Shown in pieces: positions 42,701 through 45,700 of a stretch of 64,000 nt of DNA (its first letter is position 1; each line of letters begins with the position of its first letter). The stretch lies in assembly GCF_051903065.1 (NCBI RefSeq), contig NZ_CP178439.1. One strand, written 5' to 3'. Origin of the DNA: Escherichia coli (GTDB lineage: Bacteria > Pseudomonadota > Gammaproteobacteria > Enterobacterales > Enterobacteriaceae). Made by a program: the position numbers.

Positions 42701-45700
42701 TCCCACGACGCGTATCCCATCACAGTGCCAGTCGGCCCAACCGCGGAGCGTAACGCGGCAACGACCGTCTCCGCTCCTCCTTCGACCGGACCAATCGCTT
42801 TAAGTGAGGCATGCACCATCAAGAGGTCACCGGTTTGGACTCCGAGTTTTTGAAGCGCCTCCGTTATTGCCTTCCGCGTATGCATCGCGATATCTCCTCT
42901 AAACTGCAAAACACTATACGCTGATGAATCCCCTAATGATTTTGGTAAAAATCATTAAGTTAAGGTGGATACACATCTTGTCATATGATCAAATGGTTTC
43001 GCGAAAAATCAATAATCAGACAACAAGATGTGCGAACTCGATATTTTACACGACTCTCTTTACCAATTCTGCCCCGAATTACACTTAAAACGACTCAACA
43101 GCTTAACGTTGGCTTGCCACGCATTACTTGACTGTAAAACTCTCACTCTGGCACTGTTGCAAAGTTAGCGATGAGGCAGCCTTTTGTCTTATTCAAAGGC
43201 CTTACATTTCAAAAACTCTGCTTACCAGGCGCATTTCGCCCAGGGGATCACCATAATAAAATGCTGAGGCCTGGCCTTTGCGTAGTGCACGCATCACCTC
43301 AATACCTTTGATGGTGGCGTAAGCCGTCTTCATGGATTTAAATCCCAGCGTGGCGTTGATTATCCGTTTCAGTTTGCCATGATCGCATTCAATCACGTTG
43401 TTCCGGTACTTAATCTGTCGGTGTTCAACGTCAGACGGGCACCGGCCTTCGCGTTTGAGCAGAGCAAGCGCGCGACCATAGGCGGGCGCTTTATCCGTGT
43501 TGATGAATCGCGGGATCTGCCACTTCTTCACGTTGTTGAGGATTTTACCCAGAAACCGGTATGCAGCTTTGCTGTTACGACGGGAGGAGAGATAAAAATC
43601 GACAGTGCGGCCCCGGCTGTCGACGGCCCGGTACAGATACGCCCAGCGGCCATTGACCTTCACGTAGGTTTCATCCATGTGCCACGGGCAAAGATCGGAA
43701 GGGTTACGCCAGTACCAGCGCAGCCGTTTTTCCATTTCAGGCGCATAACGCTGAACCCAGCGGTAAATCGTGGAGTGATCGACATTCACTCCGCGTTCAG
43801 CCAGCATCTCCTGCAGCTCACGGTAACTGATGCCGTATTTGCAGTACCAGCGTACGGCCCACAGAATGATGTCACGCTGAAAATGCCGGCCTTTGAATGG
43901 GTTCATGTGCAGCTCCATCAGCAAAAGGGGATGATAAGTTTATCACCACCGACTATTTGCAACAGTGCCCAATTTCTTTGAGCACTGGCTTCATGACATT
44001 CGTGTTGAGGCCATTTATGAAAACTCTACGCTGAAAGCGCCGTTTTGTATAAGCGGCCATGGTATGCCCGGAGCCACAGCTGCGGATGAGTTCGATAAAA
44101 CCCTGGCGTTTCTTGAAGCTATCGTTAATGCGGATGATGAAACAACGGTCGGCGAGATCCGCCCTTTTGCTGACGACCTGGATGCTGTCAGGTTCAACCG
44201 CCACAAAATCAACCGGCAACTGAGCAGGCTCGACCTTGCATCTCCGGTACTGGAGCCTGAAGTTATCTGGCTGGGCCGTCGTCGCTGACTGATGTCTATA
44301 AAGGTATACGTTTTCAGCATGCCTCTCAGATCCCCGAAAAAATGTCTATAAACCTCCCTAAATCAGTGTTTATGGATTATTCTTTAAATCTCTATGATGT
44401 TTAAAGACCTTCCGGAGGTTTTGCGTGCAATATGCCTACATCAGGGTAAGCTCGGCCGATCAGAATACGGCCCGTCAGGAAGAGGCATTGTCAAAGGCGG
44501 GTTTTCAGCCTGATAAAATTTGTGTTGAGCATGCCAGCGCGAAGGACACAAACCGCCCGGGGTTACAGGAACTCCTGGGGCAATTACGCCCTGGTGATAC
44601 GCTTCTGGTTCATTCCATCGATCGCCTTTGCCGGAATATGTCGGATATGTGCGCTGTCACCACCCGGCTTCGTGACCAGGGCGTTACCCTTATTTTTCTG
44701 AAAGAGCAGCTGACGTTCAGCGCCGGCACAAACAATCCGATGCAGGAACTGCAGCTGCACATGATGTCGGCATTCAGCCAGTTTGAACGAGCCTTACTGA
44801 AGGAAAGGCAGGCCGACGGCATCGCCGCGAAAAAAGCACGGGGTGAAAAAACAGGGCGCCCCGGCGCCGATATCAAAAAGATCCAGGAAATTGACGCACT
44901 CAGAAGCAGAGGGGTCAGGCTCAGGATCGCCTGCGACCATGCGGGCCTTGGCGTTTCCACATATTATAAGCTTCGTCACCAGATGAACAACCAGTAGCCG
45001 GGAGATAGTCATCCACCACAGCAGGAGGCAATGATGCAACTGACGCTCCAGATAGTCATCACCGATGAATCAGGCTCCAGTCGAACGGAGGAACTGATGA
45101 CAATCCAGAAATCAGGGGAGACCCGGAACGACATCGGATTATCGGTGTCAGAATCCAAGCTGTTGCTGAATACGGTCCAGCAGTCGGTGGTCCAGCTGCA
45201 GGCAGACGAATATACTCAACACCATATCCGGTGCCCTCACTGCCTTGCTGCGCGCAGAATCAAAGGCAAACAGAAAATACGGTACCGGACGCTGTTTGGC
45301 GTTATTCCGGTATCCGGGCTTCGGGTGTACCGGTGCCGTTGTGAAGAGAGTGATACAAAGACAGTCAGTTTGCTCAGCGACTGGGCCGGCGATTATTCTC
45401 ACCCGGCACTGAAATATATTGAAACCCGCTGGGCCTCGATGATCTCCTATGAAATGACGACTCGTCTGCTGAAAGATATTCTGCCGGTGGGCCACAGCCT
45501 GAATGCCTCAACGGTGAGGAATCATTTATGCCAGGTGGCGCAGCGTCTTGACGCTGAGGCTGAAGCTCATTCAGGTTTTCTTTCCGGCTGCCCCCGCGAC
45601 TGGGGGAACCTGCCCAGGCCAGGAAAACCGCTTGTGGTGGGTATAGATGGTGGTTATGTTCGCGATCGGGATGACAAAAAGCGTAATTTTGAAATTATTG

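What the first reader, a model, noticed from the sequence alone, without database searches (positions are those of the whole stretch)
43150..43969. One of five IS26 copies is the Tnp G184N variant
Copy 4 encodes RIINATLGF where the other four encode RIIGATLGF, through two adjacent nucleotide changes. This substitution is, as I recall, characteristic of an IS26 variant reported to have enhanced activity. Its position at one end of the aac(3)-II composite transposon suggests that unit arrived from a different source than the other IS26 copies.
Basis: partly seen in the sequence, partly recalled or inferred. Interest (0 to 1): 0.35.

Follow-up and report, generated by a model that had tools for sequence, protein, structure and literature searches.

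The report
IS26 copy encoding known G184N transposase
One of the IS26 insertion sequences in this multidrug-resistance plasmid region really does encode the G184N transposase, but this is a known and very common variant reported to be more active, so the finding is correct and ordinary.

Summary
The window holds four complete IS26 copies and one 3'-truncated copy. Only the copy at 43150-43969 (minus strand) differs, by GG->AA at IS26 positions 613-614 (window 43356-43357). This changes codon 184 from GGC to AAC (G184N).

This is the substitution of the published variant IS26-v1, reported by Pong et al. 2019 to form cointegrates more often. It is very common. The exact protein sits on at least 1000 contigs, and G184N-coding copies occur in more than 3,000 PLSDB plasmids.

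Copy 4 is not the canonical three-difference IS26-v1, because it lacks the silent G459A. This two-difference form is itself present in 1,027 PLSDB plasmids.

The junction between this IS end and aac(3)-IId is conserved in about 72 plasmids, nearly all of IncHI2 size. Most of them carry AA at that junction, so the variant came with the aac(3)-IId segment within an IncHI2 lineage.

Two points are new but minor. IS26–aac(3)-IId–IS26(G184N) is flanked by an 8-bp direct repeat (CAATTTCT) inside a PRiA4_ORF3 gene of the qnrS1 module. That site was not found in PLSDB, complete E. coli genomes or JGI metagenomes.

Sister plasmids differ in which IS26 copy carries which allele, so the allele is a weak marker of origin.

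The parts
43150..43969 (-). IS26 copy 4: 820 bp with perfect 14-bp terminal inverted repeats (right repeat 43150-43163, left repeat 43956-43969). It encodes Tnp26-G184N.
   Evidence: It differs from the other copies only at IS positions 613-614.
43202..43906 (-). tnp26 coding sequence (234 aa plus stop) with G184N. Residues 75-212 match the DDE_Tnp_IS240 domain.
   Evidence: Translation. Pfam PF13610, E=5e-49. The exact protein is on at least 1000 contigs.
43356..43357 (-). The variant dinucleotide: TT on the + strand, equal to AA at IS26 positions 613-614. Codon 184 changes from GGC to AAC.
43511..43511 (-). IS26 position 459. Here it is G (the IS26 state), whereas canonical three-difference IS26-v1 copies have A (silent, Pro132).
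   Evidence: five canonical copies in L001, L004 and L005 have G459A. Searches give haplotype counts.
38575..39394 (-). IS26 copy 3 (standard sequence), in direct orientation with copy 4. It is the other end of the pseudo-compound transposon.
   Evidence: Its left-repeat flank AGCCGACG is the same as in L001, L003 and L004.
39395..43149 (-). Passenger segment: DUF3883/NOV_C gene (39431-40558), AAA ATPase gene (41470-42012) and aac(3)-IId (42025-42885).
   Evidence: NCBIfam AAC(3)-II family, 541 bits. Pfam NOV_C. Annotation of identical DNA in L001, L004 and L008.
38567..38574 (+). Left copy of the 8-bp direct repeat CAATTTCT flanking IS26-aac(3)-IId-IS26(G184N).
   Evidence: The uninterrupted site with a single CAATTTCT is contiguous in L001 and L003.
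43970..43977 (+). Right copy of the 8-bp direct repeat CAATTTCT.
38340..38574 (+). 5' part of the interrupted PRiA4_ORF3-family gene of the qnrS1 module. The 3' part is 43978-44288.
   Evidence: Pfam PF07929. The intact gene is annotated in L003, L004 and L008. Continuity shown.
61249..62068 (+). IS26 copy 5 (standard sequence). Its left flank CCATAGTC is the flank that adjoins the G184N copy in the relative pR18.0877_278k. Its right flank TTCTACGG is that of the aadA22-adjacent IS26.
37421..38202 (+). IS26 copy 2, truncated after base 782 (no right inverted repeat) by the fixed left boundary of the qnrS1 module. Standard sequence.
   Evidence: The same junction is present in L004.
33048..33867 (+). 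IS26 copy 1 (standard sequence) at the edge of the IncHI2 backbone, at the same site as in pSG17-135-HI2.

Best explanation
Copy 4 is a genuine IS26 element whose transposase carries the known G184N substitution in the DDE catalytic domain. This is the change that defines the published variant IS26-v1, reported to form cointegrates more often.

It was not created in this plasmid. Its right-repeat end, fused 264 bp upstream of aac(3)-IId, is a junction inherited within a lineage of large IncHI2 plasmids (Salmonella, E. coli and others). Most members of that lineage carry the G184N allele at that junction.

At nucleotide level copy 4 is the two-difference form (613-614 AA, 459 G). It is not the canonical three-difference IS26-v1. 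The two-difference form is common in its own right. It may be an IS26/IS26-v1 recombinant, or it may be the separately named G184N variant; I could not decide which.

Together with the standard IS26 copy 3, copy 4 bounds a 5,395-bp pseudo-compound transposon carrying aac(3)-IId. This structure sits inside a PRiA4_ORF3 gene of the qnrS1 module and is flanked by an 8-bp target duplication.

The following is inferred, not shown. One IS26-mediated replicative event created the duplication. Recombination between IS26 copies (Tnp26-targeted conservative or RecA-dependent) then produced the present order. That recombination left non-identical IS copies at the two ends and deleted the segment that lies between blaLAP-2 and aadA22 in relatives.
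For: Identity: two adjacent changes give G184N. The element is 820 bp with 14-bp inverted repeats. The DDE_Tnp_IS240 domain spans residue 184.

Known variant: see PMC9412624 (IS26-v1 has three nucleotide differences, two of which cause G184N), PMC9019673, PMC12540391 and bioRxiv 10.1101/2024.02.20.581145 (6,266 IS26 versus 1,385 IS26-v1 transposases in Klebsiella/Escherichia/Salmonella plasmids).

Abundance: the exact protein is on at least 1000 contigs. The 201-nt haplotype 459G/AA is in 1,027 PLSDB records and 459A/AA is in 3,291.

Inherited junction: 70-72 PLSDB records have the contiguous aac(3)-IId|IS26 junction, 67 of 70 are conjugative, and nearly all listed are 235-315 kb. Of the 60 listed, 10 match c4 exactly, 43 have canonical v1 and 7 differ at two positions, the score expected of standard IS26 (not read base by base). 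The window's backbone is IncHI2.

Target duplication and empty site.

Rearrangement relative to pR18.0877_278k.

Recombination between alleles: all four 459/613-614 haplotypes exist.
Against: The activity claim rests on secondary citations, because the primary paper is not held and nothing here measures activity.

Copy 4 lacks G459A, so it fails the strict nucleotide definition of IS26-v1.

The order of events cannot be reconstructed uniquely. At least two three-step routes fit. No database record has a lone IS26 at this exact site or the same junction.

IS-internal SNPs differ between otherwise near-identical plasmids. This could reflect short-read polishing of repeats rather than biology, so the 459 state, and in principle the assignment of AA to this particular copy, might depend on the assembly.
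Confidence: 0.85

Rival explanations
1. The GG->AA difference is a sequencing or assembly artefact, for example mis-polishing of a repeated element. On this view all five copies are really the same.
For: IS26 is present five times in the window, and interior bases of an 820-bp repeat are hard to phase with short reads. Two plasmids of identical length differ at IS-internal positions in 4 of their 5 SNPs over 40.5 kb.
Against: The change is exactly the dinucleotide of a widely deposited allele. It lies only 207 bp from a unique flank. It is at the same junction in 53 of the 60 listed records, out of about 72 independent related plasmids. Random error would not reproduce two specific adjacent transitions.
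Confidence: 0.03
2. Copy 4 is the resident element that first inserted into the PRiA4_ORF3 gene. The aac(3)-IId segment arrived later, with standard IS26 (copy 3), as a translocatable unit inserted at its right-repeat end. On this view the association of G184N with aac(3)-IId here is coincidental.
For: A targeted conservative reaction at the right-repeat ends would give exactly the observed arrangement: c3 standard, c4 G184N, a direct 8-bp duplication outside. A G184N IS26 has inserted 3 bp away in the same gene in p626A1-89K.
Against: 53 of the 60 listed records, out of about 72 plasmids with this aac(3)-IId junction, already carry AA in the adjoining IS. It is therefore more economical that the G184N end came with the segment. 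No record shows a lone G184N IS26 at CAATTTCT.
Confidence: 0.15
3. Copy 4 is a fresh IS26/IS26-v1 hybrid, made by a crossover between IS positions 460 and 612 during the rearrangement that produced this window. This would be a direct footprint of that event.
For: The nearest relative examined, pR18.0877_278k, has canonical v1 (459A) at this junction. Both three-step routes I derived make c4's left-repeat-proximal part come from a standard IS26. Reciprocal hybrids (459A/GG) exist in 221 plasmids.
Against: Ten other plasmids have the two-difference form at this junction, and the one whose structure I checked (pS77-CTXM55-278k) has it in the unrearranged position. The form occurs in 1,027 plasmids, including early records such as NC_004464.2. 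It is about five times commoner than the reciprocal hybrid, so it probably also propagates as a lineage. A single crossover with a canonical-v1 unit predicts 459A in copy 3, which is not seen.
Confidence: 0.2
4. G184N arose de novo in this copy by mutation under selection for higher transposase activity.
For: None specific. It is a theoretical possibility only.
Against: It would need two adjacent transitions identical to an allele already present at the same junction in dozens of related plasmids.
Confidence: 0.01

Closest known systems
IS26-v1 (Tnp26 G184N; Pong, Harmer, Ataide & Hall 2019, FEMS Microbiol Lett 366:fnz031; nomenclature of Harmer, Pong & Hall 2021, J Antimicrob Chemother 76:2213)
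   Same: Same 820-bp element and the same GG->AA at positions 613-614, giving the same 234-aa Tnp26-G184N protein. RefSeq gives this protein its own accession, WP_001067858.1, distinct from WP_001067855.1.
   Different: Canonical IS26-v1 has three nucleotide differences from IS26 (PMC9412624). The copies examined in three plasmids carry the silent G459A as the third. Copy 4 has G at 459. PMC12540391 says that IS26 v1 and v3 both encode G184N, so copy 4 may correspond to 'v3'. The defining paper is not held, so I could not confirm this.
Standard IS26 (the other four copies in the window)
   Same: Same length, inverted repeats, flanking behaviour and 818 of 820 bases.
   Different: Two adjacent bases, giving one amino acid change in the DDE domain.
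IS26-bounded pseudo-compound transposons with non-identical ends, e.g. PTn6020 (IS26-v1-derived copy on one side, IS26 on the other; PMC9602291)
   Same: Directly oriented IS26-family copies of different allele bound a resistance gene segment, and the whole is flanked by an 8-bp duplication.
   Different: The passenger is aac(3)-IId, not aphA1. The host is an IncHI2 plasmid, not an A. baumannii chromosome.
IS26-aac(3)-IId-IS26(G184N) unit of IncHI2 plasmids such as pR18.0877_278k, pS77-CTXM55-278k and pOYZ4/MRCP ('IS26-aac(3)-IId-IS26-v1-Tn2delta' in PMC9019673)
   Same: 5,395 bp, identical but for 1-2 bases, with the same inner junctions.
   Different: In those plasmids the unit lies beside the blaLAP-2 end of the qnrS module. 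Here it is inside the PRiA4_ORF3 gene at the other end of that module, in the opposite relative orientation, with an 8-bp duplication.

Membership tests
IS26 (IS6/IS26 family insertion sequence) | 820 bp with 14-bp perfect terminal inverted repeats GGCACTGTTGCAAA | tested here: met
   43150-43969 with both repeats intact.
IS26 (IS6/IS26 family insertion sequence) | Single 234-aa DDE transposase (Tnp26) | tested here: met
   Translation. Pfam DDE_Tnp_IS240, E=5e-49, residues 75-212.
IS26 (IS6/IS26 family insertion sequence) | 8-bp target-site duplication | tested here: inconclusive
   Copy 4 on its own is not flanked by a duplication (CTCACTCT versus CAATTTCT). The c3-segment-c4 structure as a whole is flanked by CAATTTCT. 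This is usual for IS26 in resistance regions.
IS26-v1 (strict nucleotide definition) | GG->AA at positions 613-614, giving Tnp26 G184N | tested here: met
IS26-v1 (strict nucleotide definition) | Three nucleotide differences from IS26 (PMC9412624). The third is seen here as the silent G459A in canonical copies. | tested here: not met
   copy 4 has G at 459, while L001, L004 and L005 copies have A. The two-difference form is in 1,027 PLSDB records and the three-difference form in 3,291.
IS26-v1 (functional definition) | Raised cointegrate-formation frequency relative to IS26 | not testable with these tools
   Known only from the literature (Pong et al. 2019, as cited in PMC9019673 and PMC12540391). 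The protein is identical, so the property is expected to carry over.
Pseudo-compound transposon (IS26-bounded) | Two IS26-family copies in direct orientation bounding a passenger segment | tested here: met
   c3 and c4 are both on the minus strand around aac(3)-IId.
Pseudo-compound transposon (IS26-bounded) | Inserted as a discrete unit: the uninterrupted target is known and an 8-bp duplication flanks the unit | tested here: met
   The empty site is contiguous in L001 and L003 with a single CAATTTCT. The duplication is at 38567-38574 and 43970-43977.

The most novel reading that the evidence does not exclude
Copy 4 is a fresh hybrid. Its right-repeat-proximal 208-361 bp would come from IS26-v1 and the rest from standard IS26, joined by a crossover during the relocation of the aac(3)-IId unit into the PRiA4_ORF3 gene. 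This arrangement was not found in PLSDB, complete E. coli genomes or JGI metagenomes. If so, the window would preserve a datable footprint of how a hyperactive Tnp26 allele and standard IS26 copies jointly reshuffle an IncHI2 resistance island. The excess of the 459G/AA form over its reciprocal (1,802 versus 340 places) would hint that hybrids keeping G184N spread preferentially.
Probability: 0.15. Interest if true: 0.3.

Novelty: already known. Interest (0 to 1): 0.15.

Why it matters
The practical value is in annotation and epidemiology. Copy 4 should be labelled as a G184N IS26 variant and not as plain IS26. A resistance island containing a reportedly more active Tnp26 may rearrange, or fuse with other replicons, more readily. 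The allele is too common, and too easily exchanged between IS26 copies, to be surprising or to trace the origin of the aac(3)-IId unit by itself. Two things are mildly useful for people reconstructing IncHI2 plasmid evolution: the conserved aac(3)-IId|IS26(G184N) junction as a lineage marker, and the new insertion site with its 8-bp duplication.

Tried and rejected
1. Census in species-representative genomes. An exact scan for a 186-nt pattern and then a 45-nt variant-specific pattern gave 0 hits in genome contigs both times. No census was possible there. The viral collection gave two loci, one of each 459 state.

2. Search for the same insertion elsewhere. A synthetic 'lone IS26 in ORF-3' query against PLSDB found no record covering both junctions. 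The best hit, CP101798.1, turned out to be a canonical G184N IS26 inserted 3 bp away, so it is an independent event. The c4|ORF-3 junction is absent from 5,426 complete E. coli genomes and from JGI metagenome contigs.

3. Primary literature. Three papers are not held: Pong et al. 2019, the Harmer & Hall 2024 MMBR review, and the 2021 note defining v1-v4. I therefore could not confirm whether the two-difference form is the published 'IS26-v3'.

4. First junction search. Without a strict E-value it was swamped by IS26-only matches joined as two pieces. I repeated it with an E-value cut-off that admits only contiguous junction matches.

5. Single-crossover model. Insertion of a canonical-v1 translocatable unit into a resident IS26 is rejected, because it predicts 459A in copy 3, which is not observed.

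6. Single copy-in of a one-IS translocatable unit. This is rejected as the sole event, because it predicts identical IS copies at both ends.

7. Hybrid promoter. I considered an outward hybrid promoter from the IS26 right repeat driving aac(3)-IId. The start codon is 264 bp away and the candidate -10 elements by eye are poor, so I did not pursue it.
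Full report
**1. The observation**

The 14-bp IS26 terminal repeat GGCACTGTTGCAAA occurs ten times in the window, against none expected. BLAST of 43150-43969 against the window finds four complete 820-bp copies:
- c1 at 33048-33867 (+)
- c3 at 38575-39394 (-)
- c4 at 43150-43969 (-)
- c5 at 61249-62068 (+)

There is also one copy truncated after base 782, c2 at 37421-38202 (+).

Oriented on the transposase strand, c1, c2, c3 and c5 are identical. c4 differs only at IS26 positions 613 and 614 (GG->AA), which are window 43356-43357. Codon 184 changes from GGC to AAC, so RIIGATLGF becomes RIINATLGF. Residue 184 lies inside the DDE_Tnp_IS240 domain, which spans residues 75-212. 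By inspection it is eleven residues after the putative catalytic glutamate, E173.

**2. What it is**

Papers in the library identify G184N as the substitution of IS26-v1. They attribute increased Tnp26 activity and cointegrate frequency to it, citing Pong et al. 2019 (PMC9019673; PMC12540391; PMC9412624; bioRxiv 10.1101/2024.02.20.581145). The last paper counts 6,266 IS26 and 1,385 IS26-v1 transposases in Klebsiella, Escherichia and Salmonella plasmids. Both exact proteins are in the 15-billion-protein collection, each on at least 1000 contigs. RefSeq gives them separate accessions (WP_001067855.1 and WP_001067858.1). The variant is thus known and very common.

**3.

PMC9412624 states that IS26-v1 differs from IS26 by three nucleotides, two of which cause G184N. 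Five G184N copies in three reference plasmids (L001, L004, L005) carry G459A (silent, Pro132) as the third difference. c4 has G at 459.

I counted exact 201-nt haplotypes in PLSDB, using an E-value threshold that admits only perfect matches (perfect match E=1e-100, as predicted):

| Haplotype (459 / 613-614) | Records | Places |
|---|---|---|
| G / AA (c4 type) | 1,027 | 1,802 |
| A / AA (canonical v1) | 3,291 | 6,733 |
| A / GG (reciprocal) | 221 | 340 |

All four combinations exist, so the two sites have been recombined (or mixed by assemblers). The c4 type is about five times commoner than its reciprocal and occurs in early records such as NC_004464.2. It is therefore also an established form. 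PMC12540391 says that IS26 v1 and v3 both encode G184N, so c4 may be 'v3'. The defining note is not held, so I could not check.

**4. Surroundings**

Bases 1-33047 are IncHI2 backbone, 100% identical over 25 kb to many Salmonella IncHI2 plasmids. c1 sits at the same site as in pSG17-135-HI2. NCBIfam and Pfam scans and annotated relatives give this order:

1. c1
2. mph(A)-mrx-mphR and an IS6100 remnant
3. c2 (truncated)
4. 5' part of a PRiA4_ORF3 gene
5. c3
6. DUF3883/NOV_C gene, AAA ATPase gene, aac(3)-IId
7. c4 (G184N)
8. 3' part of PRiA4_ORF3
9. resolvase gene, ISKpn19, qnrS1
10. truncated Tn3-family tnpA, blaCTX-M, ISEcp1
11. tnpR, blaTEM, a PBP gene, blaLAP-2
12. c5
13. aadA

c3 and c4 are in direct orientation around aac(3)-IId, so this is a pseudo-compound transposon of 5,395 bp.

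**5. Target duplication and empty site**

The 8 bp to the left of c3 and to the right of c4 are both CAATTTCT. This is the only matching pair among all IS26 flanks. Joining 38203-38574 to 43978-44400 reproduces a sequence that is contiguous in two plasmids, with a single CAATTTCT. The structure is therefore a discrete insertion into the PRiA4_ORF3 gene.

**6. Is the G184N end tied to aac(3)-IId?**

The answer is yes. With an E-value cut-off that admits only contiguous matches, the 501-bp junction (250 bp upstream of aac(3)-IId plus 251 bp of IS26) is present in just 70 PLSDB records. Of these, 67 are conjugative, nearly all listed are 235-315 kb, and 36 are Salmonella and 24 Escherichia. Extending the query through position 459 gives 72 records. 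Of the 60 listed:
- 10 are identical to c4
- 43 have one mismatch (canonical v1)
- 7 have two mismatches, the score expected of standard IS26 (not read base by base)

In other aac(3)-IId contexts, such as the K. pneumoniae IncF plasmid L001, the IS lies about 1 kb further away. The junction therefore marks an IncHI2 lineage, and the G184N allele is its usual state. PMC9019673 independently describes 'IS26-aac(3)-IId-IS26-v1' in an IncHI2 plasmid.

**7. Relation to the nearest relatives**

In pR18.0877_278k (L004) and pS77-CTXM55-278k (L008) the same unit lies next to the blaLAP-2 end of the qnrS module, and the PRiA4_ORF3 gene is intact. In the window:
- The unit (1-2 differences in 5,395 bp) is inside that gene, at the opposite end of the module and in the opposite relative orientation.
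- c5 combines the blaLAP-2 flank of the relatives' G184N copy (CCATAGTC) with the flank of their aadA22-adjacent IS26 (TTCTACGG).
- About 17 kb (ISVsa3, sul2, mer) is missing between them.

At least two three-step routes, each built from standard IS26 reactions, reproduce this.

- **Route (a):** inversion-type intramolecular replicative transposition of the standard IS26 into CAATTTCT; then homologous recombination between inverted IS copies; then deletion between direct copies.
- **Route (b):** excision of a two-IS circle; copy-in at CAATTTCT; then deletion.

Both routes keep the right-repeat end of the G184N copy attached to aac(3)-IId, and both give c4 a left-repeat-proximal part from a standard IS26. 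These routes are inference. I found no intermediates. A single copy-in of a one-IS translocatable unit is excluded as the only event, because the two ends differ. A single crossover with a canonical-v1 unit is excluded, because c3 lacks 459A.

**8. Caveats on using the allele as a provenance marker**

L004 and L008 have the same length and differ at five positions in 40.5 kb. Four of those are inside repeated IS elements, and one is position 459 of the G184N copy. Another relative, NZ_CP055064.1, has G184N at both ends of the aac(3)-IId segment. So either alleles are frequently exchanged between IS26 copies, or they are sensitive to how repeats were polished.

**9. Verdict**

The element is a known, abundant variant. 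Strictly, it is the two-difference G184N form and not canonical IS26-v1. The new insertion site with its 8-bp duplication is a minor local novelty. Interest is low.

Noticed in passing
window 46934-46957 (- strand): An orphan copy of the 14-bp IS26 terminal repeat (GGCACTGTTGCAAA, followed by AAATGTGGAGG, which is not IS26) lies between ISKpn19 and qnrS1. No partner was found with up to 3 mismatches. It may be the end of the ISKpn19 element or a minimal IS26 remnant.
   Followed up: partly
window 38202/38203: IS26 copy 2 is cut after base 782 by the left boundary of the qnrS1 module (GAGAGCATG...). The same boundary abuts unrelated DNA in L001 and L003. It therefore looks like the fixed terminus of a mobile module comprising PRiA4_ORF3, resolvase and ISKpn19.
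   Followed up: partly
L005 (CP101798.1) 12001-12820, compared with window 43970-43980: In p626A1-89K a canonical three-difference G184N IS26 is inserted in the same PRiA4_ORF3 gene only 3 bp from the window's site (flank TTTCTTTG versus CAATTTCT). This hints at a local preferred target.
   Followed up: partly
window 48327-49272 and 60306-61248: A duplication of about 945 bp in inverted orientation brackets the segment from truncated tnpA through blaCTX-M, ISEcp1, blaTEM and the PBP gene to blaLAP-2. Its 170-aa ORF (60649-61161) has no NCBIfam hit.
   Followed up: no
L004 versus L008 (NZ_CP037959.1 / NZ_CP065095.1, 140608-181108): Two 278,374-bp Taiwanese Salmonella IncHI2 plasmids differ at 5 positions in 40.5 kb. 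Four lie inside repeated IS elements (IS26 position 459 and three in ISKpn26). This is either conversion between IS copies or a repeat-polishing artefact.
   Followed up: partly
window 47205-47861 and 53633-54895: The window has qnrS1 where the Taiwanese and Hong Kong relatives have qnrS13 (one residue, S31C). Its ISEcp1 is intact where theirs is interrupted by ISKpn26. The window is therefore a cousin of those plasmids, not a descendant.
   Followed up: partly
window 36662-37420: An IS6100 remnant (terminal repeat GGCTCTGTTGCAAA near 37100) follows mphR(A) and is cut by IS26 copy 2. This is the usual IS26-mph(A)-mrx-mphR-IS6100 module, truncated.
   Followed up: no
L009 (NZ_CP055064.1) 9316-21007: This Hong Kong wastewater IncHI2 plasmid carries three G184N IS26 copies, including both ends of the aac(3)-IId segment. 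It shows that the allele spreads among copies within a plasmid.
   Followed up: no
Genome-contig collection: Neither a 186-nt nor a 45-nt exact pattern specific for the G184N allele matched any of the 100,044 species-representative genomes. Yet the allele is in more than 3,000 PLSDB plasmids. The reason (composition of the collection, or collapsed repeats) was not established.
   Followed up: no
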